Assembly: GCA_963822375.1 (NCBI GenBank)
Contig: CAWGHV010000032.1
Location: 12,442-76,441, forward strand
DNA length: 64,000 nucleotides
Reading direction: 5' to 3'
From: an uncultured beta proteobacterium
GTDB taxonomy: Bacteria; Pseudomonadota; Gammaproteobacteria; Burkholderiales; Rhodocyclaceae
This document shows positions 44,209-63,416 of this stretch, in pieces. The notes beneath the pieces are model-generated. The model made no database searches. It was not told the DNA's origin and was given only the letters and a program-made list of their open reading frames with translations. The first letter of the stretch is position 1. Each line of letters begins with the position of its first letter. A program made the position numbers and the translations under genes.

Positions 44209-47200
44209 CTACGAGGTGCCCAAGGTGAAGTAGAAAGTGGCGCCGTAGCCCAGCGTGCTGTCCGCCCACACTTCGCCCCCGTGCAGATGCACCACCCGCC
44301 AGGCGATCGCCAGCCCGATCCCGTTGCCGGGAAACTCGGCCGGCGAATGCAGACGGTGAAACGGCAGGAACAGTTTGTCCTTGTAGGTCATGTCGAAGCC
44401 GACGCCGTTGTCGCGAACGAAGTATACGGTTTGGCCGTCGCGCGCCTTGGTGCCGAATTCGATCTTGGCGAGCGGCTTCGGCGCGGTGAACTTGACCGCG
44501 TTGCCTAGCAGGTTGTCGAGCACCACACGCAACAGGCGCGGGTCGCCCTGGGCCGAGATATCGTGGGCAACGGTGATTTCGAGCTTGCGCTCCGGATATG
44601 CGCTCGAGATCTGGTCGCACACCTCGCGCGCCATAGCGCTCAGGTTCAGCGGCTCGACGTGCAATTCCGATCGCGTCAGACGCGACAGCTGCAGCAGATC
44701 GTCGATCAGCCGCGCCATATTTGTGCTGGCGTTGATGATGCGGCTCAGGTAGTCCTTGCCGTTGTCATCAAGCAGGCGGTCGTAATCCTCGCTCAGGGCG
44801 TGGGCGAATCCCGCGATACCGCGCAGCGGCGCCTTGAGATCATGCGAAACCGAGTAGGCGAACGCCTCCAGCTCGCGGTTCGAGGCGCTCAGCTTGACGG
44901 TGCACTCATTCAGTCGGCGTTCGAGATCCTGGCCGAGCTGGCGCAACTGGTTCTCCAGAAGAACCCGGCTGGTGATCGTGGTGTGAGTGACGACAGCCCC
45001 GCCGGCAGGCCAGCCGAGGCTCGATGCGGTGAGCAGAAACCAGCATTCCTCATCCCGAACACGGCAAGGATATTTCATGGCGAAGGTCTCGCGCTTGCCC
45101 GCCAGCAGTTGGGTGATGCCCGCGCGCGCGCGCGCCGCTTCTGCCGCCGGCATGCCGACGACCGTCTCGCATGCGTCGAGATAGTTGGAACCGAGCCAGT
45201 AGTTCGCCTCGCGTGGGGCACCATTGTCTCGGGCAGCCTGGCGCCACGGCTCGTTGACCAGGAAAATCTTCCCGTTCCGGTCGAGCACGGCGATATTCGC
45301 GCGCACCGAATCGAGGATCGCGTGGCTCAGCTCTTCGCTCTCGCGCAGCATCTCTTGCGCCCTGACGCGGGCGGAGATCTCGGTTGCGATTGTGCACACC
45401 GCATCGATTTCGCCGTTTTCGTCGGCGAGCGGAAAGCGCACGGCGAGGAAATGGTGTTCACCGTCGTTAAGGATCACCGTATCCTGGGATTCGGTGGGAT
45501 CGGATGATCGCAGCGCGGCAAGGTCGCGCTCGCGAAACAGGTTGGCGATGGGTGGCGCCAGCACTTGCTGTTCGGATTTACCGGTCACCGCGTCGGGATC
45601 GATCCCGAACACCTCGCCGAAGGCGGTGTTGGCGAACTCGTAGTGCCCCTTCAGGTCTTTCACCGTCACCAGCGCCGCCCGGTTGTTCATCATCGCCAGC
45701 AGGCGCATGCGGCTGCGCCGCAGACTGCGCTGCGCCTCGACCAGCTGAGTGGTGTCCACCAGGCTCAATATCGCGCCCGAGGCGGCATGCGCCAACAACC
45801 GGCAGGGTGTGACGCGCAGGCTGTAGTGGCTGCCGCGATGCTCGATCTGCTCTTCCAGCGGATGGTTGATATCGAGCACGCGCGCGATCTTGCCGGGCAA
45901 TTCGGCGATGCCGTAAGGCACGAAGATCTCGCTCGTGACGGAGCCGACCGAACTCGCCGTGAGCTTGAATAGCTTGCCCGCCGGTTCGTTGTAGCGCGTG
46001 ATACGGTTGCGCTCGTCCACGACGATGAGCGGATAGGGCACGCTGTTTTGGATATTTTCCAGGTCGGTGTTGGTTTCGGTCAGTTCGTTGGCCTTGACCT
46101 GCAGCTCGTCGTTTACCGTGGTCAGCTCTTCATTGGTGGATTGCAGTTCTTCGTTCGAGGTTTCCAGCTCTTCGTTGGTCGATTGCAGTTCCTCGTTGGC
46201 TGCCTGCAGCTCCTCGTTGAGCGCCTGCATCTCCTCGTTCGAGGTTTCCAGCTCCTCGATCACGGTTTGCAGGTGCTCGCGCGTTGAACAGCAGTTCGTC
46301 CTGCAATTCCTTGATCGCCACGTTCGACATGTCCACCGTGGCGTCTGCACCCTCTGCGCGGGGCCCGACCGAGACGGTGGACACCGACTCGAAGCACACC
46401 AGGAAGCGATCGGCCCCGCTTTCGCCGACGATCGGGTGAACCGCCAAGCGAACCGCCTTGTCTTCGTTCTGGGTCTTGTGCTCGCGCGGGCGTCCGAACG
46501 CCGGCTGCTTTTTTTGACGTGCGTTGTGCAAGAGCGACTGAACTTCGACGCGCCAGCTCTTCTTCACAGTATCCAGCAGATTCAGGCTCGGCCTGCCGCT
46601 CGGAAACTCGAGGAACGAGGTCGTATCGCCATGAGTGTGGAGGATCTCGATGTCGGAATTGACCAGTACGCTCGCCGGGACGTACAGGCGCGCCGCCGAG
46701 TCGAGCAGGGTTTCCTGGGCCGAGCGAGTGCGTTCCGGATGGCGCGAATCGTTGGCGGCGAGTGGCAGCGTGTTGTTGGCGAACGCCGGGGGCTTGGACA
46801 GGGTGCCGTAGCGGCGGAAGACCTTGGCCGAGCGATTAACCAGCTCGAACTTGTCGGGGTGGCTGCTGATGCTTTCGGATTTGCCCAGGAATAGGTAGCC
46901 GCTCGGGCTCAGGGCGTAGTGAAAGATCGGCAGCACGCTGTTCTGCAGCGATGGCTGGAAATAAATCAGCACGTTGCGGCAGCTAATCAAATCCAGGCGC
47001 AGGAACGGCGGATCCTGAATCAAGTCCTGGCGCGCGAACACCATGCGTTCGCGCAGTCGCTTGGCGACTTCGTAGCCGTCGCCCACCGGGGTGAAGTAGC
47101 GCTGCACCAGCCGCGGCTCGACCTCGGCCAGAGCCGCCTGAGTGTAGATTCCACGGCGCGCGATCGCCATCGCGTCGGTGTCGATGTCGGTGGCGAAGAT

Positions 47201-48310
47201 CTGCAGGCGGATGGTGGCCAAGTCGTCCTTCAACGCCTCGGCGAACAGTATGGCGATAGAATAGGCTTCCTCGCCGGTGGCGCAGCCTGCCACCCAGACG
47301 CGGATTTCGTCCCCGGGGCGCTTCTTCTTGGCGATTTCGGCGATGATCTCCGACAAGACGAGGAAGGCCTCGGCGTCGCGGAAGAAGGCCGTGACCGAAA
47401 TGAGGATGTCCTTGCACAGCCGATCCATTTCCTCTGGGTCGTGCGTGAGGAACTTGAAATAGTCGTCGAGGGTATTGAGCCGGTTGGCTAGCATGCGCCG
47501 CTCGATGCGCCGCCACAGCGTGGTCTCCTTGTACCCGGTGAAGTCGACCTTGGTGCGCTGGCGCACCTTGAGCAGCAGCTTCTTCAGCGTTGCCGGCGCC
47601 TTGTCCTGATCGTCCAGTGTAGCGGTGACGCCGCGTGAGCGGACCAGCAAGGCGATTTCCTCGGCGATCTGCGCCGGCGTCAGCACCCAGTCCACGTTGC
47701 CGGTATCGATCGCCGCCTGCGGCATACCGTTGTACTTGGCCGAGCCGGGCTCTTGCGCCATGGTGAAGCCGCCCGCAGCCTTGATCGCGCGGATACCGGC
47801 GGCACCATCGGTGCCGGTGCCGGAAAGAATGACGCCGATGGCATCCTCGCCGATGCTCTCCGACAGCGAGCTGAAGAACATATTGACCGACGGCCGCGGC
47901 GACACGCCCGCCTTCGGTGTCGCCAAATGCAGGCGGCCGTCCTTCAGGATGACATTGGCGTTGGCCGGCGTGATGTAGACCGTGTTCGGTTCCGGCGGGG
48001 CGTCGTCGGCGACCTCGCGCACCGCCATGCTGGTCTCGCGCTCGATGAGCTGCACCAGCAGGCTGCGATGGGTCGGCGAAAGATGCTGCGCGATGACGAA
48101 AGGAACGCCGAGGTCGGCGGGGAGGTTGGACACGAGCTGGGTCAGCGCCTCCAACCCGCCCGCAGAAGATCCGATGCCGACGACGAAATTTCGCTCGGCC
48201 AGGCTGATGGAATCCCCGCGCTCGGGCGCCGCATCGGCAACCGACGCGGCCTTGGCGCGAGACGGCAATTTCCTTGCCTTTGCTGATCGACGCTTGGTTG
48301 GCTGATCCAT
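44209..48310 (-). pseudogene. CheB methylesterase - CheR methyltransferase - coiled coil - PAS x3 - HisKA/HATPase hybrid sensor (about 1360 aa), one frameshift near 46287 as assembled
   Basis: The CheB part shows VVGIGSSAGGLEAL and ILSGTGTDGAAGIRAIKAAGGFTMAQEP. The CheR part shows FFRDAEAF, IRVWVAGCATGEEAYSIAI and CRNVLIYF. The heptad stretch is [44 protein letters not shown]. The kinase part shows FAYSVSHDLKAPLR, DNLLGNAVKF, DNGVGF and GNGIGLAI. No adjacent response regulator was seen. Confidence 0.88.
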
Positions 48311-50113: not shown

Positions 50114-50548
50114 ATGTATCGGCGAGTGCTCTTGGCATACGACGGCTCTGAAAGCGGGCGCGCGGGATTGCTCGAGTGCGCCGACATAAACCATCTGCTC
50201 AATGCGGAAATCCATCTGCTCGCTGTCGCGCCACTAATGGCGGGGCTCTATATTACCGAGGGTTTCGTTCCGGATACGCTGCAAGAGGAGGAAAATCGAC
50301 ACTACCGCGCCGTGCTCGACGAAGGACTTAGCCTCCTGGCGCAAAGAGGTATGCAGGCGGAAGGGCATCTTGTCACCGGGGAGCCAGTGGACGAAATCTG
50401 CCGCCTCGCGGCCGACCTCGGGTGCGACTTGATCGTGGTGGGCCATCATCGCCACCAGTCGCTGCTGTCGCGATGGTGGAAAGGTTCGATCGGCGCTTCG
50501 CTCATCCAAGAGGCGCCCTGCAGCGTGTTGATCGGTATCGCGCGTTAG
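50114..50548 (+). CDS. universal stress protein (UspA family)
   Basis: MYRRVLLAYDGSESGRAGL..PVDEICRLAADLGCDLIVVGHHRHQSLLSRWWKGSIGASLIQEAPCSVLI. Confidence 0.88.
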   Translation: MYRRVLLAYDGSESGRAGLLECADINHLLNAEIHLLAVAPLMAGLYITEGFVPDTLQEEENRHYRAVLDEGLSLLAQRGMQAEGHLVTGEPVDEICRLAADLGCDLIVVGHHRHQSLLSRWWKGSIGASLIQEAPCSVLIGIAR

Positions 50549-50996
50549 GCTTCCCGACGGATCTCTCGGCACAGCCAGAGTCGGCTTGCCCCGCCCCGGG
50601 CGTGCCGATTCTTGAGGCGACGAGACCGAGCCGGCATCAAATTTTCTTTTTCGTTAGAAAAATGTTTTTGTGCTGCATGGGGGTTTGCCGCTATGCAGCA
50701 TCTTGCTCTTGGGAGGATATGAATCTATTATCAAATTTAGGCCTTTAATGATCCGTAGCGTCGCTTTGTGGTGCGGGATTGACCTGGGTGCGTCTTTTGC
50801 GCTTTGAATCTTTGCAGCGCGAAGAGGTGTGCCAGCGAGCAGCATATCGGGGTGAACAACGGAGCATGGCCTGGCGGATTCTAGCGTCGCGACGAATAGA
50901 GGCTGTTTGTCAAAACCACTGCAATATCAGAATGTTGAACTGGTTTATTCGCGCGATGGTTGGCAACTGAACTTCAAGTTACGGAGAGAAAAGAAA

Positions 50997-52484
50997 ATGT
51001 ATGCGCTCTTAAATGATCTACCTGAGTTCGGAACAAATTGGGGTCGGTATGTCGTGGCAATGGCCCGGGCCACCAACCGAGAAGTAGGCGAGATGAGTGA
51101 AAACCTCCTCATAGCCTCACAGATCGCTCTCCAAGGCGCGAAGGAAAACCCGGCCAGTCTGGTGCAGATGTCTGAGATCCTTCAGCACAATATGTCGTTG
51201 ATGAATAAAGGCTTATCGGGTGCTCAGGCGAAGTTGACCGATTTCGGCTTTGATCAAGCGCAAGAGGGACTTAGGGCGCTGATTAATACCGTTTATGATG
51301 GGGAGGGCGAAAAGCTCTCAGGCTTCATGCGCCGCGAGGCGGAAGTCATGGAAGCAGTGGCAAACTTCAACGAACAGATCGAAAAGATCAAAGACGAGTT
51401 CGGATTCCACTTCAACACGCCGAACTACAAGCTGGTTCAAGAGACCGACTCGTTTTTGCTCTACCAGGTGCTGCCGCTCAAGAAAGGTGTCAAGGTGCGT
51501 GAGGATCTGAAGCCGATGATCCTGGTGCCGCCATACATGCTGGGCGTGCACATCCTTTCGTTCTTGCCCTACGACGACAAGAGCTACGCGCACTCCTATG
51601 CCAACGAGGGGATTCCCACCTACGTCCGCGTTGTCAAGAACATCTTCGATGAACCCAAGGTGCAGACGATGACACCGGAGGATGATTGCGATCAGACCTT
51701 CGAACTGTGCGCCAAGGTGAAGGCGCTGAATGGTGGCCAGAAAGTCACTCTAAATGGCACGTGTCAGGGCGGCTATATCTGCCTGATGAACATCTTGTCG
51801 GACAAACTGCGGGACGTCTGCGATGCCCTGATCACCAACGTGACGCCGGTCGACGGCACGTACAGCGATGCCATCAGCGGCATGCCGACAATGCATCACG
51901 ACTTCATCACGACCACGCTGCCCAGTGGCAACAAAGTCGCGAACGGTTACCTCCTAAGCCTCGGCATGCGCTTCGTAGCGATCGACCGTGAGACGCCGCT
52001 GGTCAAAGTGCTGGATCAGGCATCGCTGCATAGAGCAACGGATCTGAACCCGGGCAAGACACCGGCGGCGCTGTTCCGCTGGCTGACCAAGGAGCGGGTG
52101 CATCTGCCGCTGGCGATCGCCAATATGAGTTCGCACACGTTCCAGGAGCCCATTGCCGAAGACGGCACCTTGCCGGTACCCTTATACGGCAAGCCGCTCA
52201 ACATCAAGCACTTGATGGACTTGGGGATGCCGTGGTACCAGAACTACGCGATCAAGGACGATCTGGTAACCCCCGCGTGCGCGACAGCGGGGAACAAGCA
52301 TCTCGAGGGCTGGAATCAGCTCGAGTCGGTCGCGTTCTTCGGTGGCCACGTCGCGGTTCTCACCAGCCCCTATGCGAAGAAGGCGCCAGTTAACGGCGAA
52401 TTCACGGATGCCCTGGGCAACAAATCGCGTGGCCCAGTGAAGTTCCAGCTCGACATATCGGCCCCGAAACGCGCGAAAGCGTAA
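50997..52484 (+). CDS. divergent PhaC-type PHA synthase-like alpha/beta hydrolase with an N-terminal helical extension (495 aa)
   Basis: It is colinear with the class III PhaC in this window: KPMILVPPYMLGVHILSF vs TPLLIVPPLINGYEVADL. The lipase box is LNGTCQGGY (Cys codon 51762-51764) vs LLGICQGGT. The Asp region is AIKDDLVTP vs AEKDHIVPP, and the His region is FFGGHVAVL vs KTGHIGIY. GGAGAG lies 8 nt upstream of ATG 50997. The gene has its own terminator and is more A/T-rich than its surroundings. Confidence 0.7.
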   Translation: MYALLNDLPEFGTNWGRYVVAMARATNREVGEMSENLLIASQIALQGAKENPASLVQMSEILQHNMSLMNKGLSGAQAKLTDFGFDQAQEGLRALINTVYDGEGEKLSGFMRREAEVMEAVANFNEQIEKIKDEFGFHFNTPNYKLVQETDSFLLYQVLPLKKGVKVREDLKPMILVPPYMLGVHILSFLPYDDKSYAHSYANEGIPTYVRVVKNIFDEPKVQTMTPEDDCDQTFELCAKVKALNGGQKVTLNGTCQGGYICLMNILSDKLRDVCDALITNVTPVDGTYSDAISGMPTMHHDFITTTLPSGNKVANGYLLSLGMRFVAIDRETPLVKVLDQASLHRATDLNPGKTPAALFRWLTKERVHLPLAIANMSSHTFQEPIAEDGTLPVPLYGKPLNIKHLMDLGMPWYQNYAIKDDLVTPACATAGNKHLEGWNQLESVAFFGGHVAVLTSPYAKKAPVNGEFTDALGNKSRGPVKFQLDISAPKRAKA

Positions 52485-52502
52485 AGCAAAGCAACGTTGC
52501 GC

Positions 52503-52529
52503 AGGGCGCCCGCGAGGCGCCCTTTTTTT
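52503..52529 (+). terminator. intrinsic terminator after the PhaC-like gene
   Basis: The stem is AGGGCGCC / GGCGCCCT with a 5-nt loop, followed by a T7 run. Confidence 0.85.
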
Positions 52530-52796
52530 CGTGCCCGCTAATCCTCCCCAGTGCCGACGGGAACTCCCGCGACGCCGGCTGATAGGGGAGTGCTTTGTAG
52601 TCGCACGCGCACCGCCCCGGCGCGCCGTGCGCGGCGCCGCGCACAAATTCCGCCGACCCGCTGCTTCGATGCGCGCGGTGGTATAGAATGCGCACGAATT
52701 CACGCTTTGTCGAGCTGGAGCGCCCATCTGGAGCCACCTGAGGGTGGGCGGCGGCCGAGTATCAATAGCTTAGGCACGATTCATTCAGGAGGAAAA

Positions 52797-53564
52797 ATGC
52801 AAGTTAAGGACAGCGTATTCATCGTTACCGGCAGCGGTTCCGGTCTGGGAGCAGAGACGGCCCGCCGGCTGGTGGCAGCGGGCGGCAAAGTAATTATCGT
52901 CGATGTCGCGAAGGATGCCGGCGAGGCCACCGCGGCGGAACTGGGGCCCAACGCCAAGTTCGTCACCACCGACGTCACCGATGCGGCGAGCGGGAAAGCG
53001 GCGGTCGATGCGGCGGTCAGCACGTTCGGCGGGCTGCACGGGCTGGTCAACTGTGCCGGCGTCGCGCCGCCGAAGAAGGTCGTCGGCAGAGAAGGCGCGC
53101 ACGATCTCGAGACCTTCGTCCGCGTCGTCAATATCAATCTCAACGGCACGTTCAACATGATCCGCCTCGCCGCGGAAGTGATGAGCAAGAGCCAGCCGAA
53201 CGCCGAGGGCGAGCGCGGTGTCATCGTCAATACCGCTTCGGTAGCTGCGATCGACGGGCAGATCGGCCAAGCCGCCTATGCTTCGTCCAAGGCCGGGGTC
53301 ATTGGATTGACGTTACCTGTGGCACGCGAGTTGGCGGCCCATGGCATCCGCGTGGTTACCATCGCCCCCGGGATATTCGAAACGCCGATGCTGAAGGGCC
53401 TGCCGCCGGCGGCACAAGAAGCGCTGGGAAAGATGGTTCCGTTCCCCTCGCGCCTTGGGAGGCCGGCCGAATTTGCGGCTTTGGTGCAGCACATCGTCGA
53501 GAACGGCTATCTGAACGGCGAAGTCATCCGCCTGGATGGTGCGATCCGCATGGCGCCGAAGTGA
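52797..53564 (+). CDS. 3-hydroxyacyl-CoA dehydrogenase, SDR type II (HSD17B10-like, 3-hydroxy-2-methylbutyryl-CoA dehydrogenase family)
   Basis: [83 protein letters not shown] and the C-terminus [22 protein letters not shown] lies 5 nt upstream of the ATG. Confidence 0.8.
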
Positions 53565-53622
53565 GGCGACGCGGCGGCGGCATGCGATTTGTTCGAGTTC
53601 GAAGGGTTTATTCGAGGAGCTT

Positions 53623-54807
53623 ATGATGAGTGAAAATGTTGTCATAGTCGGCGCGAAGCGGACTCCGGTCGGAGCTTTCCAAGGTCAATTCTCCGCGGTC
53701 TCTGCGCCACAACTGGGCGCGACCGCGATCAAAGCGGCGGTCGAACAGGCCGGTGTCAAAGGCGAAGAAATCGACGAGGCGCTGATGGGTTGCTGCCTGA
53801 TGGCCGGCCTGCGCCAGGCGCCGGCGCGCCAGGCCGTGCTCGGGGCGGGCCTGCCGAAATCCGTCCCCTGCACGACCTTGACCAAGATGTGCAGCTCGGC
53901 GCAGAAAACCGTGATGATCGCCCACGACGAGATCTTGGCCGGCTCGGTCAATATCGCGGTCGCGGGTGGGATGGAATCGATGACCAATGCGCCGCACATC
54001 CTGACCAATGCGCGCAGCGGCTACCGCCTCGGCCACGGCCAGCTATACGACCACATGTTCTTCGATGGGTTGGAGGATGCCTATGAGCAGGGCAAACTCA
54101 TGGGCGCCTTCGCCGAGTTGTGTGTCGAGAAGTACGGCTTCACCCGCGAGGCGATGGATGCGTTCGCGATCGAATCGGTCAAGCGCGCACAGCGCTCGGT
54201 GACCGAGGGCGTCTTCGCCGCCGAACTTGCACCAGTCACCGTGAGCGGTAGAAAAGGCGATGAGGTGATTAGTCTGGACGAGACGCCGATGAAATGCGAT
54301 GTCTCCAAGATCGCCAAACTCAAGCCTGCCTTCAAGAAGGATGGCGCCGTGACGCCCGCCAACTCATCCTCCATCTCCGATGGCGCAGCAGCCTTCGTGC
54401 TGATGAGCGAATCGGAGGCCAAGCGCCGCGGCATCAAGCCGCTCGCGCGGATCCTTGGCCACAGCACGTACGCGCATGACCCCGCCTGGTTTACAACGGC
54501 GCCGGTAACTGCCTTTGGCAAACTATTGCAGAAGCTCGATTGGCGCGCGGGCGACGTGGACCTGTGGGAAATCAACGAGGCGTTCGCGGCAGTGACGATG
54601 GCTTCGATGCACGACCTCAAACTCACGCATGACCGGGTCAACGTCAATGGCGGCGCTTGCGCCTTGGGCCATCCGATAGGCGCCACCGGCTCGCGCATTC
54701 TGATTACGTTGCTCTACGCGCTCAAGGCACGCGGTCTCAAGCGCGGCATCGCGGGTTTGTGCGCGGGCGGCGGCGAGGCCACGGCGATCGCGTTGGAGGC
54801 CCTTTGA
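53623..54807 (+). CDS. acetyl-CoA C-acetyltransferase (thiolase II type)
   Basis: VVIVGAKRTPVGAFQG is followed by the active-site region TLTKMCSSAQKTV. NVNGGACALGHPIGATGSRIL and GLCAGGGEATAIALE are also present. Confidence 0.9.
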   Translation: MMSENVVIVGAKRTPVGAFQGQFSAVSAPQLGATAIKAAVEQAGVKGEEIDEALMGCCLMAGLRQAPARQAVLGAGLPKSVPCTTLTKMCSSAQKTVMIAHDEILAGSVNIAVAGGMESMTNAPHILTNARSGYRLGHGQLYDHMFFDGLEDAYEQGKLMGAFAELCVEKYGFTREAMDAFAIESVKRAQRSVTEGVFAAELAPVTVSGRKGDEVISLDETPMKCDVSKIAKLKPAFKKDGAVTPANSSSISDGAAAFVLMSESEAKRRGIKPLARILGHSTYAHDPAWFTTAPVTAFGKLLQKLDWRAGDVDLWEINEAFAAVTMASMHDLKLTHDRVNVNGGACALGHPIGATGSRILITLLYALKARGLKRGIAGLCAGGGEATAIALEAL

Positions 54808-54865
54808 TCCGACTGCGGAGGAATGACTCCGCCTCGCTCGCCGAGGCATCGAGGGAGCAGATGTA

Positions 54866-55306
54866 ATGCTGATCGACAAAAAGCATATCGGCGCGAAAGT
54901 GCCGACGCACGCGGTCACCCTGACCGCGTGGCAATTGAAGTGGTTCGCCAAGGCGACCGGGGAAACCAACCCGATTTACTTCGACGAGGCCGCGGCGAAG
55001 AAGGCCGGACTGCCGGGCGTGCTGGCACCGCCGACCTTCTTCTTCTGCGGCGACATGGACAAGGACCGGCCCTTCGACTATCTGGAGGAAATGGGCTGCG
55101 ACCTGGGCAAGATGCTCCATGCCGAGCAGCTATTCACTTACCACAAGCCGGCTTACTCGGGCGACACGCTCGAATTCGACGGCCAGATCACCGACATCTA
55201 CGACAAGAAGAACGGCGCCCTGCAATTCATCGTCAAGGATGTCAAGGTGCGCAGGGGCAACGACGTGTTGTGCGATCTGCGTACCGTGATCGTGATTCGG
55301 GAGTGA
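54866..55306 (+). CDS. MaoC-like hot-dog protein, non-catalytic (HadA-like) subunit of a split hydratase
   Basis: 146 aa. The motif position reads TGETNPIYFDEAAAKKAG, so the catalytic Asp and His of the hydratase-2 motif are replaced by Glu and Tyr. It lies 10 bp upstream of its partner. Confidence 0.7.
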   Translation: MLIDKKHIGAKVPTHAVTLTAWQLKWFAKATGETNPIYFDEAAAKKAGLPGVLAPPTFFFCGDMDKDRPFDYLEEMGCDLGKMLHAEQLFTYHKPAYSGDTLEFDGQITDIYDKKNGALQFIVKDVKVRRGNDVLCDLRTVIVIRE

Positions 55307-55316
55307 CGGAGGAACC

Positions 55317-55736
55317 ATGGCGAAACCGAGTTTTGAAGCATTGAAAGTGGGTGACGAAATTCCCGCCTTCACCAGCGATCCCGTTTCCCGTCTGACCCTC
55401 GCGCTTTATGCCACCGGCTCCGGCGACCATCATCCCCTGCATCTGGATCAGGACTATGTCCGCTCCAAGGGCATGAAGGACGTGTTTGCCCACGGCATGC
55501 TGGGGATGGCCTACCTGGGACGCCTGCTGACGCAATGGGTACCGCAGGAGTCGATCCGAAAATTCAGCGTGCGCTTCACAGCAATCACTTGGATCGGCGA
55601 GGCTTTGGTGTGCACCGGCAAGGTGGTGGAGAAGGTCGAGCAGGGAGGGGAAAGGTGCGTGCGCCTGGAACTGACCTGCGCCAGCGACAAGGGCGAGGTG
55701 AAGCACAAGGGCGAAGCGCTTGTCGCATTGTCGTAA
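55317..55736 (+). CDS. MaoC-like (R)-specific enoyl-CoA hydratase, catalytic (HadB-like) subunit
   Basis: 139 aa with the hydratase-2-type motif YATGSGDHHPLHLDQDYV, where Asp and His are retained. Confidence 0.75.
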   Translation: MAKPSFEALKVGDEIPAFTSDPVSRLTLALYATGSGDHHPLHLDQDYVRSKGMKDVFAHGMLGMAYLGRLLTQWVPQESIRKFSVRFTAITWIGEALVCTGKVVEKVEQGGERCVRLELTCASDKGEVKHKGEALVALS

Positions 55737-55873
55737 CGCGGCAAGCGTTGGAAGTCAAGTCGGTATTCGCGGGACAACCGATCATGCGTACTCGATCGAC
55801 ATAGGCGCGCCGCCGTGCGGCATCGCGGCTGATGAATTGCCGGCGGCGAACTCAAATCTTCGGGAGATAAGCA

Positions 55874-56965
55874 ATGAACAGTACTGAACAAGCAGGCGCG
55901 ACGATCGGTAACTGGGCCGACATGCAAAAGCGCATGTGGGACGAGTGGTACGGCATGTTCACCAGCGCCGGGATCGGGCGTGGCGCCGCAGGCGATGGCG
56001 GGCCGGCGGCGGCAATGAAACAGGGCGTGGATGCTCTCAACCAGGGTACCAACGAAGCCGCGCGCGCACTGATGGAGCGGATGCAGTCCAGCCAGGGCGC
56101 GATGAACCGGGTGATGGAGTTCTTCCTCAAATCGTGGAAAGTCGTCGCGCCGAACCTCGATGCCGGCAAGGACTGGCGCCCCGACCTGCAAAACTTCGCA
56201 ACCAACTGGGCGCAGGAAGCGACCGCGCTGCTCAATCGCAATCTGGGTATGGGCTCGAATTTCGGCGACATGACGCGCTCGATGGTTCAAGACTGGCCGG
56301 GAGCGTTGGGCCCCTGGATGGGCTTCCTGTCGCAGGCCAGTTCGATGGGGCACTTGGGCGAGGCAGCGCTGGGGGGGACCGCCGGGCTCACGCGTTTGTT
56401 GAACATGGGAACCGAAGTGCATCCGTTGCCCGGCTTGGGCGAACTGCCGCGCTTTGGGGTGAGCCGCGAAAAGAACGCCAAGATGATGCGGCTGTTCGAC
56501 GCCTCGGTAGATCTGCGCAAGAGCAGCTTGAAGTTCCATACGGCTTTCGCGCAGGCATTGGCCAAAGCGGTGGAGGCCACGGTCGATCAGTTGGGAGATC
56601 TCGCGCAGAAGGGCGAAAAGATAACCTCTGTCCGCGATCTGATGCGCCTGTGGTTCCGCACGGCGGACGGATCCTTGATGCACACCTTCAACTCGCCCGA
56701 GTTCATTGATATCCAAAACGACTTCACCAAGGCGGGCCTGACACTGAAGATCAAGCAGCGCGAGGTCGTGGAGGACATGCTGCGCGCGCTCGATATGCCG
56801 ACTCGAACGGAGCTGGACGATGCCTATAAGGTAATTCACGAGTTAAAGAAAGAGGTTCGCGCCATCAAGAAGGCACGAGGCGGCGCCGAGCGCGAAGCTG
56901 CGCCCAAGGCGCGTGCTTCGGGCTCCCGTGCCGGCGCGGCGAAAGGACAGTCAAAGGCGGGTTGA
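55874..56965 (+). CDS. phaE: class III PHA synthase subunit PhaE
   Basis: 363 aa. It sits immediately upstream of a class III phaC. The PhaE-like central segment is LPRFGVSREKNAKMMRLFDASVDLRKSSLKFHTAFAQAL. The C-terminal helix is LDMPTRTELDDAYKVIHELKKEVRAIKKA, followed by a basic tail. Confidence 0.78.
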   Translation: MNSTEQAGATIGNWADMQKRMWDEWYGMFTSAGIGRGAAGDGGPAAAMKQGVDALNQGTNEAARALMERMQSSQGAMNRVMEFFLKSWKVVAPNLDAGKDWRPDLQNFATNWAQEATALLNRNLGMGSNFGDMTRSMVQDWPGALGPWMGFLSQASSMGHLGEAALGGTAGLTRLLNMGTEVHPLPGLGELPRFGVSREKNAKMMRLFDASVDLRKSSLKFHTAFAQALAKAVEATVDQLGDLAQKGEKITSVRDLMRLWFRTADGSLMHTFNSPEFIDIQNDFTKAGLTLKIKQREVVEDMLRALDMPTRTELDDAYKVIHELKKEVRAIKKARGGAEREAAPKARASGSRAGAAKGQSKAG

Positions 56966-57030
56966 TGTACGCAATATGCGCAACGCGTTCAAGGTGTGAA
57001 TTCAACTAGACCTCTCGGAGGGCAGTAGCC

Positions 57031-58137
57031 ATGTTTTCGTTTCCTATTCAGATTCTCCCGAGCGATCTCGCCGCTGAGGCCGCGGACATCAACGCCAAGA
57101 TCAGCCGGGGGATGGAGAATCTCAATACCCTGAAGGACGAAGAGATCGACATCGGGAGTACCCCCAAAGACGTCATCTTCAGCCACGACACGGTGAACGT
57201 CTATCGCTATCACCCGACGGTCGAGCAAAGCAAGATCCTGAAGACGCCGCTGTTGATCGTACCGCCGCTGATCAACGGGTACGAGGTCGCGGACTTGCAG
57301 CCCGACCGCTCACTGGTGCGCAACCTGCTCGCCGAAGGGCTGGACGTGCATCTGCACGACTGGGGCTATCCACGCCCGGTCAACAAGTATTTGACTGTCA
57401 ACGACCACATCAACGGCTACTTGGACGACGCCGTCGATTTCATCCGCGATTACCACGGCGTAGACAAGATCGCGCTGCTCGGCATCTGCCAGGGCGGCAC
57501 CATGAGCACCGTCTATTCGACGCTGCACCCGGACAAGATCAGCCAGTTGATTCTCACGGTGTCGCCAATCGACTTCGCGGCCTACAAGGGGAAGTCGAAG
57601 CCTCACGAGGGCTTGATGTTCACGCTCGGCGCCGACGTCGATGTCAACAAGATGGTCGCGGCCTACGGCAATGTTCCGGCGGAGGTGCTCAACGTTTCCT
57701 TCCTGATGGCCTCGCCGTTCGTGCTGAACTTCGGCAAGTACGCCGACGTCGTCAACATCCTCGAAGACCGCAAGGGCTTGCTCAACTTCCTGCGCATGGA
57801 GAAGTGGCTGTTCGGCGGTCCCAACGCCGCGGGTGAGACCTACAAGGAATTCGTGCGCGAATTCCTACAGGGCAACAAACTCATCAAGGGCGAAATCGTG
57901 CTGGGCGGAAAGCGCGTTAACCTGAAAGACCTGAAGATACCGATACTGAGCATCTTTGCCGAGAAGGACCACATCGTCCCGCCGCCTTGTACCACCGCGC
58001 TCGGCAAATACGTCGGGACGAAGGACTACACGGAGATGATGATCAAGACCGGGCACATCGGCATCTATACCGGCGGGGCGTCGCAAAAGCTGTTGGCGCC
58101 GATGGTCGGCAAGTGGCTGCGCGAGCGCACCACCTGA
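57031..58137 (+). CDS. phaC: class III PHA synthase catalytic subunit PhaC
   Basis: 368 aa with lipase box LLGICQGG (Cys codon 57487-57489). Also present are TPLLIVPPLINGYEVADLQPDRSLVRNLLAEGLDV, FAEKDHIVPP and TGHIGIY. Size and motifs fit class III. Confidence 0.88.
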   Translation: MFSFPIQILPSDLAAEAADINAKISRGMENLNTLKDEEIDIGSTPKDVIFSHDTVNVYRYHPTVEQSKILKTPLLIVPPLINGYEVADLQPDRSLVRNLLAEGLDVHLHDWGYPRPVNKYLTVNDHINGYLDDAVDFIRDYHGVDKIALLGICQGGTMSTVYSTLHPDKISQLILTVSPIDFAAYKGKSKPHEGLMFTLGADVDVNKMVAAYGNVPAEVLNVSFLMASPFVLNFGKYADVVNILEDRKGLLNFLRMEKWLFGGPNAAGETYKEFVREFLQGNKLIKGEIVLGGKRVNLKDLKIPILSIFAEKDHIVPPPCTTALGKYVGTKDYTEMMIKTGHIGIYTGGASQKLLAPMVGKWLRERTT

Positions 58138-61964: not shown

Positions 61965-62705
61965 ATGGCAAAAAGAATCGCATTGGTAACGGGCGCATTG
62001 GGCGGCATCGGCACGGCAATCTGTCAGGAACTTGGAAAGGCGGGACACACGGTAGTCGCTTGCGATTTACCCGGTTTACCGCACAAGGACGCGTGGTTGG
62101 CCGAGCAGAAGGCGGACGGCTTCGACTTCGTCATCGCGGAGGCCGATGTGTCCGACTACGACTCATGCAAGGCTATGGTGCAGAAGGTGGAAAAGGATGT
62201 CGGCCCCATCGACATCCTGGTGAACAACGCCGGTATCACCCGCGACAAGTTTTTCCCGAAGATGGAAAAGGCCATGTGGGATGCGGTCATCTCGACCAAC
62301 CTCGACAGCCTCTTCAACGTAACCCATAACATCTCGCCCAAGATGGCGGAGCGCGGCTGGGGGCGGGTCATCAATATCTCGTCGCTCAACGGCGTGCGCG
62401 GCCAGGCCGGCCAGATCAACTACTCCGCTGCCAAGGCCGGGTGTCTCGGCTTCACCAAGTCCCTGGCGCAGGAGCTGGTCGAGAAAGGCGTGACGGTCAA
62501 TGCAGTGGCGCCGGGCTACATCGGCACCAAGATGGTCTTGGCCATCCGTGACGATATCCGCGAGACCATCCGCAACGGCATTCCGATGAAGCGCTTTGGC
62601 ACGCCGGCGGAAATCGGCGGGCTGTGCGTCTATCTGGCCTCCGATATGGCGGGTTACATCACCGGCGCGACTATCAACATCAACGGTGGTCTTCACATGT
62701 GTTAA
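61965..62705 (+). CDS. phaB: acetoacetyl-CoA reductase
   Basis: RIALVTGALGGIGTAICQEL, ILVNNAGITRD, NISSLNGVRGQAGQINYSAAKAGCLGFTKSLAQE and the ending TININGGLHMC are typical of PhaB. It lies next to phaR. Confidence 0.88.
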   Translation: MAKRIALVTGALGGIGTAICQELGKAGHTVVACDLPGLPHKDAWLAEQKADGFDFVIAEADVSDYDSCKAMVQKVEKDVGPIDILVNNAGITRDKFFPKMEKAMWDAVISTNLDSLFNVTHNISPKMAERGWGRVINISSLNGVRGQAGQINYSAAKAGCLGFTKSLAQELVEKGVTVNAVAPGYIGTKMVLAIRDDIRETIRNGIPMKRFGTPAEIGGLCVYLASDMAGYITGATININGGLHMC

Positions 62706-62724
62706 CTCGCTGAGCAGGCTGGAG

Positions 62725-62760
62725 AATTGGCCCGGCTCTCAGCCGGGCCAATTTTTTCTT
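62725..62760 (+). terminator. intrinsic terminator after phaB
   Basis: A 13-bp stem (AATTGGCCCGGCT / AGCCGGGCCAATT) with a 3-nt loop is followed by a T-run. Confidence 0.85.
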
Positions 62761-62810
62761 GCGGTGTATAATTGAATAAGGGGTGGTTTCATGTAGGAGG
62801 GAGCAAGGAT

Positions 62811-63416
62811 ATGTCTGTCGCGAGTAAAGACAGTGCAGTTGAGCAGCCGAGACTGATCAAGAAGTATCCCAACCGGCGCTTGTACGATACGCGGACCAGC
62901 GCATACATCACGTTGGCGGACGTCAAGGAGTTGGTCCTGCGGAATGAAGAGTTCCATGTCGTCGATGCCAAGACGAACGATGATCTCACCCGCAGCATCC
63001 TGCTCCAGATCATCATCGATGAGGAAGCCGGCGGGGTGCCGATGTTCACCAGCGACCTTCTGTCGCAGATGATCCGCTTCTACGGCGATGCGATGCAGGG
63101 CATGATGGGCAAGTACCTGGAGAACAACATCCGGGCGTTCACCGACATGCAGGGGAAACTGCAGGAGCAGGCGCGCGCGATGTATGGCGAGAACAATCCT
63201 ATGAGCAAGGATCTATGGGCGCAATTCTTGAGCTTCCAGGGACCGGCCTTGCAGAGCATGATGGGTGCGTACGTCGAGCAAAGCCAGAAACTGTTTTCGC
63301 AGATGCAAGAGCAGATTCAGGCCCAGACGCGAACCTTGCTTGCTGGTTTCAAGATCCCGAATTTCAACGGTCCGGCGGGCGAAAACGAACAACAAGAAAG
63401 CGCCGAGAACAAGTAG
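62811..63416 (+). CDS. phaR: polyhydroxyalkanoate synthesis repressor PhaR
   Basis: RLIKKYPNRRLYDTRTSAYITLADVKELVLRNEEFHVVDAKTNDDLTRSILLQIIIDEE is the hallmark PhaR N-terminal domain. Confidence 0.92.
   Translation: MSVASKDSAVEQPRLIKKYPNRRLYDTRTSAYITLADVKELVLRNEEFHVVDAKTNDDLTRSILLQIIIDEEAGGVPMFTSDLLSQMIRFYGDAMQGMMGKYLENNIRAFTDMQGKLQEQARAMYGENNPMSKDLWAQFLSFQGPALQSMMGAYVEQSQKLFSQMQEQIQAQTRTLLAGFKIPNFNGPAGENEQQESAENK

What the first reader, a model, noticed from the sequence alone, without database searches (positions are those of the whole stretch)
50997..52484. Divergent second PhaC-type synthase with an N-terminal helical extension that fits no size class I know
The 495-aa product is colinear with the canonical class III PhaC encoded 4.5 kb downstream. 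It keeps all three catalytic-triad contexts: Cys in GTCQGG, Asp in IKDDLV and His in GGHVAV. It also carries roughly 95 extra N-terminal residues that look all-helical and phasin-like (MYALLNDL..EQIEKIKDEFGF), plus internal insertions.

At 495 aa it sits between class III/IV PhaC (about 355 aa) and class I/II (about 560-600 aa). It has no PhaE or PhaR partner of its own. It has a private RBS and a strong terminator, so it is monocistronic. It is also clearly more A/T-rich than the flanking DNA, which suggests separate acquisition.

It could be a self-sufficient synthase in which the extension replaces PhaE. It could also have a different substrate range, or be a depolymerase-like derivative.
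Basis: partly seen in the sequence, partly recalled or inferred. Interest (0 to 1): 0.78.

Follow-up and report, generated by a model that had tools for sequence, protein, structure and literature searches.

The report
Unnamed PhaC-like enzyme family in PHA clusters
This gene encodes a real but very divergent relative of the bioplastic (PHA) polymerase PhaC that no standard domain model recognises; the family recurs beside ordinary PHA-synthase genes in phosphate-removing wastewater bacteria and sulfate reducers, and has never been studied.

Summary
Window 50997-52484 (+) encodes a 495-aa protein with its own GGAG site and a strong terminator. It is colinear with the window's class III PhaC, with Cys256, Asp421 and His451 aligned to the catalytic triad.

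It belongs to no described PhaC class. Pfam gives no hit, and the class III model scores 39.8 bits against a cut-off of 365. AlphaFold models are confident, and their 15 best PDB matches are all PhaC.

It is one member of an unnamed family:
- 547 loci in species-representative genomes.
- Every Accumulibacter locus among the 80 shown, plus Defluviicoccus, purple-sulfur and symbiont Gammaproteobacteria, and Desulfobacterota.
- The triad is invariant, and the N-terminal two-helix hairpin recurs in the models of two members sharing 37% identity.

The family sits beside, never instead of, phaE-phaC in every PHA-linked locus. In Defluviicoccus the order is MaoC-MaoC-X-phaE-phaC.

The extension shows no similarity to PhaE, to phasins or to the class I N-domain. 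The low G+C reflects amino-acid composition, not recent acquisition.

Most likely this is a second PHA-granule acyl-enzyme, probably a polymerase. A thiolytic depolymerase cannot be excluded. It is a new variant of a known kind.

The parts
50983..50986 (+). Shine-Dalgarno-like GGAG, 10 nt upstream of the ATG
   Evidence: Sequence read. The start is supported by homologue lengths of 488-495 aa at 99-100% coverage.
50997..52484 (+). CDS of the PhaC-like protein 'X' (495 aa, 54.7 kDa, pI 5.9; stop TAA at 52482-52484)
   Evidence: There are 792 homologues in the 5.8-billion-protein set. GC3 is 0.75.
51000..51293 (+). N-terminal two-helix hairpin (aa 2-50 and 55-99), family-specific and the least conserved part
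   Evidence: AF2 model. The same hairpin appears in the model of a relative with 37% identity (H6-55 and H58-107, pLDDT 92.2). Identity to close-clade relatives is 46-53%, and 21% to the distant clade. No Pfam, PhaE or class I N-domain similarity was found.
51315..51416 (+). Third and fourth helices (aa 107-133) plus the conserved FGFHF motif (aa 135-139), leading into the catalytic domain
   Evidence: BLASTP aligns this stretch with the first ~40 residues of the window's class III PhaC.
51417..52388 (+). PhaC-type alpha/beta-hydrolase catalytic domain (aa 141-464), including a CAP/LID-like insert at about aa 286-410
   Evidence: hhalign against class III PhaC gives probability 99.6% and E 2.8e-24. 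The Foldseek top 15 hits are all PhaC structures. The CAP/LID region is 79-90% identical across Beta-, Alpha- and Gammaproteobacteria.
51756..51773 (+). Lipase-box-like G-T-C-Q-G-G; the Cys256 codon is at 51762-51764 (predicted nucleophile)
   Evidence: Cys is invariant in 38 family members and aligned with C153 of the window PhaC.
52080..52082 (+). Trp362, aligned with the conserved Trp of PhaC (W259 in the window PhaC; W425 of C. necator by my own recollection)
   Evidence: It is conserved in at least 90% of family members.
52257..52259 (+). Asp421 (in KDDLV), aligned with the catalytic Asp. The following residue is Asp, not the His found in class I and III PhaC.
52347..52349 (+). His451 (in GGHVAV), aligned with the catalytic His
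52389..52481 (+). C-terminal tail (aa 465-495) with the family motif RGPVxFxLD, absent from class III PhaC
   Evidence: G479 and P480 are invariant or nearly invariant.
52503..52530 (+). Intrinsic terminator: 8-bp stem (7 G-C pairs), 5-nt loop, T-run
52797..58137 (+). Downstream PHA operon, as functional context: SDR 52797-53564, thiolase 53626-54807, HadA/HadB-like MaoC hydratases 54866-55306 and 55317-55736, phaE 55874-56965, class III phaC 57031-58137
   Evidence: The same block lies near X in Accumulibacter and partly in Defluviicoccus.
61965..63416 (+). phaB (61965-62705) and the regulator phaR (62811-63416), as further PHA context
   Evidence: TIGR01829 at 370.8 bits and TIGR01848 at 164.4 bits.

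Best explanation
X is a functional member of an unnamed, deep-branching sister family of the PHA synthases. Its catalytic domain has the PhaC alpha/beta-hydrolase fold with Cys256 as nucleophile, His451 as general base and Asp421 as the third triad residue. It should therefore form a covalent (R)-3-hydroxyacyl-thioester intermediate from 3-hydroxyacyl-CoA.

The most likely role is a second PHA polymerase acting on the same granules as the neighbouring class III PhaE-PhaC enzyme, not in place of it. The family-specific N-terminal two-helix hairpin probably serves as a built-in structural, oligomerisation or granule-contact module.

Shown: homology, fold, invariant triad, family-wide architecture, and repeated genomic linkage to PHA genes across phyla.

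Inferred: the substrate, the direction of the reaction (polymerisation rather than thiolysis) and the role of the hairpin. Whether it needs a partner protein is unresolved.
For: **Homology and fold**
- BLASTP E 2e-10 over 362 aa against the window PhaC.
- hhalign probability 99.6%, E 2.8e-24 to class III, and 93.8% to a class I-like PhaC.
- The only NCBIfam hit is class III PhaC. Among 38 relatives, 23 hit class III, 5 hit class I and none hit PhaZ.
- Two independent AF2 models (pLDDT 88.3 and 92.2) each have PhaC structures as their 15 best PDB matches. E-values are about 1e-9 to 1e-13, against 1e-7 or weaker for other hydrolases.

**Active site**
- C256, D421 and H451 are invariant, and W362 is nearly so, across relatives at 20-75% identity.
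- The nucleophile sits in the PhaC-type G-x-C-x-G-G box.

**Genomic context**
- Window: X, then SDR-thiolase-MaoC-MaoC-phaE-phaC.
- Accumulibacter: within 10 kb of the class III operon, a class I-like phaC, an acyl-CoA ligase, a crotonase and a PHB esterase.
- Defluviicoccus and other Rhodospirillales: MaoC-MaoC-X-phaE-phaC on one strand.
- Desulfosarcina: thiolase, small protein, X, SDR, phaE, phaC.
- All 6 distant loci examined carry phaR and/or phaE-phaC and phasin-like genes around X. X therefore sits inside biosynthetic operons.

**Selection.** X is 73-75% identical between Beta- and Alphaproteobacteria, while the adjacent PhaC is 58% and PhaE 40%.
Against: - There is no experimental datum for any member, and no paper mentions the protein.
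- A Cys-Asp-His triad is also used by the thiolytic depolymerase PhaZa1 (own knowledge), so the triad does not fix the direction of the reaction.
- Two second-shell residues conserved in class I and III PhaC are replaced family-wide. The His after the catalytic Asp becomes Asp, Gly, Ala, Thr or Arg. The Asn448 (C. necator)-equivalent becomes Pro.
- Every PHA-linked locus already has a canonical synthase, so a second polymerase is not obviously needed.
- About 30 of the 80 close-clade loci show no PHA gene within 8 kb.
Confidence: 0.5

Rival explanations
1. X is an intracellular PHA-mobilising enzyme. It would be a Cys-nucleophile depolymerase that cleaves granule polymer by thiolysis with CoA or by hydrolysis, or a transacylase that remodels chains. 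This is the PhaC chemistry run in reverse.
For: - The triad is compatible with this chemistry.
- PHA-linked loci already contain a complete PhaE-PhaC synthase, but within the stretches inspected often no recognisable depolymerase.
- In Accumulibacter, X is followed 236 bp downstream on the same strand by a crotonase-type enoyl-CoA hydratase and faces a PHB esterase. That fits a 3HB-CoA to crotonyl-CoA catabolic route.
- The second-shell His and Asn of synthases are lost.
Against: - None of 38 family members hits the PhaZ model TIGR01849, and the window protein has no Pfam hit at all, so none to PF06850. The window's canonical PhaC does hit both.
- The nucleophile box is the synthase-type G-x-C-x-G-G.
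- X is embedded between thiolase and reductase or hydratase genes of biosynthetic operons.
- The best structural matches are synthases, although no PhaZa1-type structure may be available for comparison.
Confidence: 0.22
2. X is an alternative catalytic subunit that works only together with the cluster's PhaE. This would resemble Haloferax mediterranei, where PhaC1 and PhaC3 each form an active synthase with the single PhaE and give polymer of different composition.
For: - X lies immediately upstream of phaE in Defluviicoccus and other Rhodospirillales, and near phaE in the window, in Accumulibacter, in some Chromatiaceae and in Desulfobacterota.
- There is a precedent for several PhaC paralogues sharing one PhaE (PMC2939530).
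- X is closest to class III by profile comparison.
Against: - X is monocistronic with its own terminator here.
- About 30 close-clade loci have no phaE within 8 kb.
- In four of six distant loci, X is followed by its own ~127-164-aa coiled-coil gene even though phaE is also present.
- No interaction could be computed with the tools available.
Confidence: 0.15
3. One reading: X is a self-sufficient synthase in which the N-terminal helical extension has taken over the role of PhaE.
For: - The extension is a confidently modelled helical hairpin. It is seen in the models of two members sharing 37% identity, and a helical N-terminal stretch of 108-186 aa precedes the FGFHF motif in all 38 aligned members.
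- X is often encoded alone.
- Class I PhaC likewise carries a helical N-domain and needs no PhaE (own knowledge). Full-length A. caviae PhaC is the top structural hit.
Against: - There is no sequence or profile similarity to PhaE or to the class I N-domain.
- Adding the N-domain of A. caviae PhaC raises the TM-score by only about 0.01-0.02 over catalytic-domain-only hits, with rmsd 17-20 A.
- Distant relatives keep the helical N-terminal region and still have a dedicated small coiled-coil neighbour.
- The hairpin is the least conserved part of the protein.
Confidence: 0.15
4. X has left PHA metabolism. It would be a generic thioesterase or acyltransferase, or a decaying paralogue, and its position near pha genes would be historical.
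For: - About 30 of 80 close-clade loci lack PHA neighbours.
- It is annotated 'metal transporter' or 'hypothetical protein' in public records.
Against: - The triad is invariant and cross-class conservation is very high. That argues against decay.
- Linkage to pha genes recurs independently in Beta-, Alpha- and Gammaproteobacteria and in Desulfobacterota, with different gene orders.
- The 'metal transporter' name has no support from any model.
Confidence: 0.06

Closest known systems
Bacterial class III PHA synthase catalytic subunit PhaC (TIGR01836; for example the window's own PhaC at 57031-58137, or Allochromatium vinosum PhaC)
   Same: - The alpha/beta-hydrolase catalytic domain is colinear over about 320 residues.
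- It shares the G-x-C-x-G-G box, the Cys-Asp-His triad and the conserved Trp.
- It is the closest family by HMM and by profile comparison.
- It is encoded in the same clusters with phaE, thiolase, reductase and R-hydratase genes.
   Different: - Identity is 23%, and the class III model scores 39.8 bits against a cut-off of 365.3.
- X has about 98 extra N-terminal residues (a two-helix hairpin) and a roughly 30-aa C-terminal tail.
- The CAP/LID region is rearranged.
- The Asp-His dipeptide is Asp-Asp, and the Asn448-equivalent is Pro.
- By hhalign, X is about as far from class III (E 2.8e-24) as class III is from a class I-like PhaC (E 7.6e-21).
Class I PHA synthases with solved structures (Aeromonas caviae full-length 9KNJ/9KNK/9KNL; Chromobacterium USM2 5XAV/6K3C; Cupriavidus necator 5HZ2/5T6O)
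   Same: - They are the best structural matches. TM-score normalised to the target is 0.60-0.66 for the catalytic domains, with E-values of 1e-11 to 1e-13.
- They are single polypeptides with a helical N-terminal domain ahead of the catalytic domain.
   Different: - X has no TIGR01838, PhaC_N or PHBC_N match.
- The N-terminal regions are not alignable (hhalign probability 0.5%) and do not superpose (rmsd 17-20 A over the full length).
- X is about 100 residues shorter.
Haloarchaeal class III-type PhaC (Haloferax mediterranei PhaC, 54.8 kDa, with a ~20 kDa PhaE, and the paralogues PhaC1 and PhaC3) (PMC2939530)
   Same: - The subunit mass is similar, at about 55 kDa.
- One genome holds several PhaC-type paralogues around one PhaE.
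- There is a small ~20-kDa partner. Compare the ~127-164-aa gene after X in four of six distant loci examined.
   Different: - The haloarchaeal extension is C-terminal, and those enzymes keep the class III motifs.
- X's extension is mainly N-terminal, and X fails the class III model.
- No direct sequence comparison with the haloarchaeal proteins was run here.
PhaZa1-type intracellular PHB depolymerase of Cupriavidus necator (TIGR01849 / PF06850), which has a Cys-Asp-His triad and cleaves PHB thiolytically (own knowledge)
   Same: It is a PhaC-related alpha/beta-hydrolase with a Cys nucleophile that acts on granules. It is a plausible functional analogue if X works in the degradative direction.
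   Different: None of 38 family members hits TIGR01849, and the window protein has no Pfam hit. The window's canonical PhaC hits both models weakly. PhaZa1 has no N-terminal helical hairpin (own knowledge).

Membership tests
PHA synthase (PhaC) superfamily in the broad sense | PhaC-type alpha/beta-hydrolase fold with a CAP subdomain | tested here: met
   AF2 models have pLDDT 88.3 and 92.2. The 15 best PDB matches of each model are PhaC structures.
PHA synthase (PhaC) superfamily in the broad sense | Lipase-box-like G-x-C-x-G-G with Cys as nucleophile | tested here: met
   GTCQGG occupies aa 254-259. Cys is invariant in 38 relatives and aligned with C153 of the window PhaC.
PHA synthase (PhaC) superfamily in the broad sense | Catalytic Asp and His at the aligned positions, plus the conserved Trp | tested here: met
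   D421 and H451 are invariant and W362 is conserved in at least 90% of members. They align with D313, H342 and W259.
PHA synthase (PhaC) superfamily in the broad sense | Polymerisation of (R)-3-hydroxyacyl-CoA with release of CoA | not testable with these tools
   This needs an enzyme assay or heterologous expression.
Class III PhaC (TIGR01836) | Score above the curated model cut-off (365.3 bits) | tested here: not met
   X scores 39.8 bits, covering aa 115-293 only. The window's true PhaC scores 397.6 bits.
Class III PhaC (TIGR01836) | A subunit of about 355 aa without extra domains, and the Asp-His dipeptide at the catalytic Asp | tested here: not met
   X is 495 aa with an N-terminal hairpin and a C-terminal tail. 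It has D421-D422 instead of D-His, family-wide.
Class III PhaC (TIGR01836) | Obligate pairing with PhaE | tested here: inconclusive
   phaE lies 3.4 kb downstream here and immediately downstream in Defluviicoccus. A canonical phaC always accompanies that phaE, and about 30 loci have no phaE within 8 kb. Physical interaction was not testable.
Class I / II PhaC (TIGR01838 / TIGR01839; Pfam PhaC_N, PHBC_N) | Match to the class models and to the N-terminal domain models | tested here: not met
   There are no hits. N-terminal region against the class I-like N-terminal region gives hhalign probability 0.5%.
Class IV PhaC-PhaR (Bacillus type) | A PhaC of about 40 kDa with a Bacillus-type PhaR subunit gene adjacent | not tested
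   No class IV reference was compared. The only phaR in the window is the regulator type (TIGR01848).
PhaZa1-type intracellular PHB depolymerase (TIGR01849 / PF06850) | Match to the family models | tested here: not met
   The window protein has no hit, and none of 38 relatives hits TIGR01849.
Phasin (PF09361, PF05597), for the N-terminal extension | Match to a phasin model | tested here: not met
   The window protein has 0 hits, even at E up to 10. One of 28 relatives (P0209) reaches 23.6 bits, against a cut-off of 24.9. The helices are only moderately amphipathic, with mean hydrophobic moment 0.32-0.42.
PhaE (PF09712), for the N-terminal extension | Sequence or profile similarity to PhaE | tested here: not met
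   The best BLASTP segment is 25 aa at E 0.015. hhalign probability is 2.7%.
DUF3141 (PF11339), the name UniRef gives the Defluviicoccus orthologue | Match to the Pfam model | tested here: not met
   X has no Pfam hit at E up to 0.01. The canonical window PhaC does hit DUF3141 weakly.

The most novel reading that the evidence does not exclude
X and its relatives form a fifth, so far unrecognised class of PHA synthase. It would be a ~55-kDa enzyme with a built-in N-terminal helical hairpin and, in many Desulfobacterota, its own ~160-aa coiled-coil partner. It would be invisible to the Pfam and TIGRFAM-based surveys on which PHA-producer censuses rest.

In the model phosphate- and glycogen-accumulating organisms Accumulibacter and Defluviicoccus it is the most conserved PHA enzyme shared between them. 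It could be the polymerase adapted to rapid anaerobic storage, or to unusual monomers such as 3-hydroxyvalerate and 2-methyl-branched units.
Probability: 0.3. Interest if true: 0.8.

Novelty: new variant of a known kind. Interest (0 to 1): 0.62.

Why it matters
PHA synthases are sorted into four classes. Both genome censuses of PHA producers and enzyme engineering start from those classes. This family has the PhaC fold and triad yet escapes every curated model, so it is annotated 'hypothetical' or, wrongly, 'metal transporter'.

It is present in every Accumulibacter locus retrieved and in Defluviicoccus. These are the organisms whose cyclic PHA storage drives biological phosphorus removal. It also occurs in purple-sulfur bacteria, nematode symbionts and sulfate reducers.

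If it polymerises, it adds a new scaffold, with a different lid and N-domain, for bioplastic enzyme design, and it revises who counts as a PHA producer. If it depolymerises by thiolysis, it would be an energy-saving mobilisation enzyme relevant to PAO and GAO energetics. Either outcome is directly testable, because Defluviicoccus vanus Ben 114 is listed as a strain with a complete genome that carries the gene.

Tried and rejected
1. **PhaR operator upstream of X.** An imperfect palindrome, TGCTGCATGGGGG/CCGCTATGCAGCA, lies at 50671-50700. The CTGCA-N-TGCAG pattern is not enriched in the window: 3 matches against 1.3 expected, and 14 of 100 shuffles reach 3. It is absent upstream of X in most of 40 other loci checked. 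Dropped.
2. **Compositional evidence for recent acquisition.** Rejected, because GC3 is host-like.
3. **Extension equals PhaE, phasin or the class I N-domain.** No support.
4. **Conserved neighbour in the 32 loci where X lacks pha genes.** None was found. Only scattered FabI-like, SDR and cation-efflux genes appear.
5. **Literature.**
   - There are no hits for CAP2UW1_3193, the presumed locus tag inferred from gene order, or for ACV36463, WP_015767640, C7RVJ0 or WP_190260382.
   - Nothing turned up on a fifth PHA synthase class.
   - The Defluviicoccus comparative-genomics paper lists only phaC and phaE.
   - Supplements of the two Accumulibacter transcriptome and evolution papers are not held, so expression of X could not be read.
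6. **Source contig.** The look-up by exact protein failed, so the organism is inferred only as a betaproteobacterium branching just outside the Accumulibacter clade.
7. **Locus search.** The 38-sequence alignment was too diverse for the search. A 12-sequence alignment was used instead, and only the best 80 of 547 loci were returned.
8. **Rfam.** A scan of 50300-52900 found nothing.
Full report

Yes. The mechanical ORF runs 50907-52484 from a TTG. Homologues are 488-495 aa and cover 99-100% of the 495-aa version, so the ATG at 50997 is the start. GGAG lies 10 nt upstream of it.

Downstream there is an 8-bp, 7-G-C hairpin at 52503-52523 followed by a T-run. The next gene is 270 nt further on. 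The gene is therefore monocistronic here.

BLASTP against the window's own class III PhaC (57031-58137) gives 23% identity and E 2e-10, with X 108-469 aligned to PhaC 11-362. GTCQGG aligns with GICQGG, KDD with KDH and GGH with TGH.

The triad residues are C256, D421 and H451, against C153, D313 and H342 in the window PhaC. About 98 N-terminal residues have no counterpart in the class III enzyme.

**2. What the protein is**

Curated models barely see it.
- Pfam-A returns nothing.
- NCBIfam returns only class III PhaC at 39.8 bits, against a cut-off of 365.3. The neighbouring true PhaC scores 397.6 bits on that model and 125.8 bits on the class I model.
- PDB sequences give only a marginal hit to Chromobacterium PhaC (E 0.02).

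Homology is nevertheless secure.
- hhalign of a 38-member family alignment against class III PhaC gives probability 99.6% and E 2.8e-24 over X 141-463.
- Against a class I-like PhaC it gives 93.8% and E 1.7e-7.
- Class III against class I gives E 7.6e-21.
- In profile terms, X is about as far from class III as class III is from class I.

Structure prediction agrees.
- The AlphaFold2 model is confident, with pLDDT 88.3 and pTM 0.86.
- It shows helices at 2-50 and 55-99 forming a hairpin, helices at 107-133, and then an alpha/beta-hydrolase.
- Its 15 best PDB matches are all PhaC: A. caviae full-length, Chromobacterium USM2 and C. necator, at E 5e-13 to 2e-9. Other hydrolases start at about 1e-7.
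- A second model, of a relative with 37% identity (P0130), has pLDDT 92.2 and pTM 0.90. It shows the same architecture (H6-55, H58-107, H114-141) and the same ranking of PDB matches.

**3. The family**

A scan of 1.84 billion 50%-identity representatives finds only 179 hits at E up to 1e-3. One cluster holds the >70% clade. A few dozen full-length relatives lie at 25-41% identity and 450-666 aa.

C256, D421 and H451 are invariant in 38 members, and W362 is nearly invariant.

Two second-shell residues conserved in class I and III are replaced family-wide.
- The His after the catalytic Asp is replaced by Asp, Gly, Ala, Thr or Arg.
- The Asn aligned with C. necator N448 is replaced by Pro.

Among 185,579 species-representative genomes, 547 loci encode a relative. 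The best 80 are listed below.
- All the Accumulibacter species shown: 74-79% identity.
- Defluviicoccus and other Rhodospirillales: 58-74%.
- One alphaproteobacterial MAG: 79%.
- Thiohalocapsa: 72%.
- Chromatiaceae, Candidatus Thiosymbion and Thiotrichales: 64-71%.
- A Spirochaeta and a Myxococcales MAG: 57-61%.

A second, distant clade is 39-48% identical to the alignment's lead sequence P0130, which is itself 37% identical to the window protein. Its members are 500-650 aa and lie in Desulfosarcina, Desulfoferrobacter and other Desulfobacterota.

Public names are 'hypothetical protein', 'metal transporter', 'DUF3141 domain-containing' or, from JGI, 'poly(3-hydroxyalkanoate) synthetase'. No model supports the transporter or DUF3141 names. 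No paper mentions the Accumulibacter or Defluviicoccus proteins.

**4. Genomic context**

In the window, X is followed by:
- an SDR;
- a PhaA-type thiolase;
- a HadA/HadB-like pair of MaoC hydratases;
- phaE;
- class III phaC.

phaB and phaR lie 4-5 kb further on.

In Accumulibacter the same class III operon, a class I-like phaC, an acyl-CoA ligase, X, a crotonase and an 862-aa PHB esterase lie within about 15 kb. Published work identifies the flanking synthases as CAP2UW1_3185 (class III) and CAP2UW1_3191 (class I). It describes both as laterally acquired and highly expressed (PMC5148189), but it does not single out X.

In Defluviicoccus vanus and 9 other Rhodospirillales or alphaproteobacterial MAG loci the order is MaoC-MaoC-X-phaE-phaC on one strand. 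One further locus (L040) has X-phaE-phaC without the MaoC pair.

All six distant-clade loci examined are PHA clusters. Examples:
- Desulfosarcina: thiolase, 83-aa protein, X, SDR, phaE, phaC.
- Three metagenome or MAG contigs (L091-L093): phaR divergent, two small proteins, X, a ~160-aa protein, then phaE-phaC-MaoC adjacent in either orientation.

The small upstream proteins are homologous to each other at 44-49% identity. They are faintly phasin-like (PF05597, E 0.016).

The ~160-aa downstream proteins form their own family of 1,036 homologues. Among the 120 listed, the few with a taxon label are Desulfobacterales, Thermodesulfobacteriota or 'Proteobacteria', and none has a Pfam hit. One stretch of this family aligns weakly with the PTRxELD...LKKEV region at the PhaE C-terminus (hhalign E 0.009, probability 4.5%). 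It has no homologue in the window or in close-clade loci.

About 30 close-clade loci show X without any pha gene within 8 kb and without any conserved neighbour.

**5. The extension**

All 38 aligned members have a helical N-terminal stretch of 108-186 aa ahead of the FGFHF motif. The two-helix hairpin itself was seen in the two members modelled. It is the least conserved part of the protein: 46-53% identity within the close clade and 21% to the distant clade. The CAP/LID-like region 286-410 is 79-90% identical within the close clade.

The extension has no detectable similarity to any of the following.
- PhaE: BLASTP best segment 25 aa at E 0.015; hhalign probability 2.7%.
- The N-terminal region of class I-like PhaC: probability 0.5%.
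- Phasin models: 0 hits for the window protein. One of 28 relatives scores 23.6 bits, just under the Phasin_2 cut-off.

In the Foldseek alignments, including the N-domain of full-length A. caviae PhaC adds almost nothing to the TM-score and gives rmsd 17-20 A.

The idea that the extension replaces PhaE therefore has no positive support. It is further weakened because distant relatives keep the helical N-terminal region and still have a dedicated small coiled-coil neighbour.

**6. Composition and history**

The gene is 56.4% G+C against 63.9% for the window. GC3 is 0.75, falling to 0.58 in the first 100 codons and about 0.8 afterwards. Neighbouring genes range 0.70-0.86. The deficit lies in codon positions 1 and 2, exactly as in the window's phaC (58.8%), phaR (55.7%) and MaoC genes. 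Composition therefore does not indicate recent separate acquisition.

Phylogeny does suggest lateral spread. X is 73-75% identical between Accumulibacter and Defluviicoccus, while the adjacent PhaC is 58%, PhaE 40%, the MaoC pair 47-60% and the thiolase 61%.

In a rough neighbour-joining tree, the betaproteobacterial sequences nest among alpha- and gammaproteobacterial ones. That group comprises the window, one uncultured betaproteobacterium and Accumulibacter. Several MAGs carry two paralogues.

**7. Mechanism**

Shown:
- the PhaC fold;
- the synthase-type nucleophile box;
- the invariant triad;
- strong purifying selection;
- repeated embedding in PHA biosynthetic operons in four bacterial lineages.

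Inferred: Cys256, activated by His451, is acylated by (R)-3-hydroxyacyl-CoA. Asp421 then promotes attack by the 3-hydroxyl of the next unit. This would make X a second polymerase working on the same granules as PhaEC. I put this at about 0.5.

The same chemistry run backwards, as thiolytic or hydrolytic mobilisation, is the main rival at about 0.22.
- For it: the canonical synthase already present, the crotonase downstream in Accumulibacter, and the loss of two synthase second-shell residues.
- Against it: the absence of any PhaZ-model signal, and the position of X between thiolase and reductase genes.

Partner dependence cannot be decided computationally here. The candidates are PhaE or, in Desulfobacterota, the ~160-aa protein.

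**8. Comparison and novelty**

X works like a PhaC but fails the membership tests for classes I, II and III, for PhaZa1, for phasins, for PhaE and for DUF3141 (see the table). Its ~55-kDa size is not unique, because haloarchaeal class III-type PhaC are 53-55 kDa with a ~20-kDa PhaE (PMC2939530). Those enzymes are extended at the C-terminus.

I class X as a new variant of a known kind. It belongs to an unnamed, uncharacterised sister family of the PHA synthases with its own architecture.

Interest is moderate to high. The family is universal in the Accumulibacter loci retrieved, present in Defluviicoccus, invisible to standard models, and directly testable.

Noticed in passing
window 44209-48310 (- strand), junction near 46292-46311: A CheB-CheR-PAS-histidine-kinase fusion gene is split into two overlapping ORFs of 726 and 713 aa. 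The intact 1365-aa orthologue from a related contig (L089) aligns in frame -1 up to 46292 and in frame -2 from 46311. This is either a frameshift (pseudogene) or an assembly error.
   Followed up: partly
L086 9619-10002; L091 8610-9095; L092 7391-7882; L093 8655-9149: In the distant clade, X is followed by a ~127-164-aa coiled-coil protein, sometimes with overlapping ends. That protein family has 1,036 homologues. The few with a taxon label are Desulfobacterota or 'Proteobacteria', and none has a Pfam hit. One stretch aligns weakly with the PhaE C-terminal PTRxELD...LKKEV region (hhalign E 0.009). It may be a small partner subunit for X. It is absent from the window and from close-clade loci.
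   Followed up: partly
L085 7663-7929; L086 7064-7968 (three copies); L087 5311-5604 and 7579-7830; also L091, L092 and L093 upstream of X: One to three tandem genes for 83-97-aa helical proteins sit directly upstream of X in the distant clade. They are 44-49% identical to each other and only faintly phasin-like (PF05597, E 0.016). They are probably an unrecognised phasin family.
   Followed up: partly
window 50671-50700: An imperfect 13-nt inverted repeat, TGCTGCATGGGGG/CCGCTATGCAGCA, lies about 300 nt upstream of X in a 448-bp, 51% G+C intergenic region. It is not enriched in the window and not conserved upstream of X elsewhere.
   Followed up: yes
L001 14137-18025 (Defluviicoccus vanus CP053923): Two IS66-type insertion sequence copies lie directly after the MaoC-MaoC-X-phaE-phaC block. 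This fits mobility of the block.
   Followed up: no
P0126 and P0129 (X relatives); class III PhaC of L085 (11264-12454) and L087 (11606-12847): These proteins carry Lys/Ala/Pro-rich C-terminal tails. The tails recall the histone-like, nucleoid-binding tails of PhaF and PhaM (own knowledge).
   Followed up: no
Locus pairs L063/L064, L061/L071, L056/L072, L049/L066, L038/L081, L039/L074, L046/L069 and L047/L068: Eight MAGs of Rhodospirillales and Gammaproteobacteria (including Chromatiaceae) each carry two X paralogues. In most pairs one copy is about 64-74% and the other about 60-67% identical to the window protein. The pairs fall on separate branches of the tree.
   Followed up: partly
window 52797-55736: The class III phaE-phaC genes are preceded in one operon by an SDR, a thiolase and a HadA/HadB-like pair of MaoC hydratases. 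The arrangement is conserved in Accumulibacter and partly in Defluviicoccus. It is a dedicated monomer-supply module, separate from phaB at 61965-62705.
   Followed up: partly
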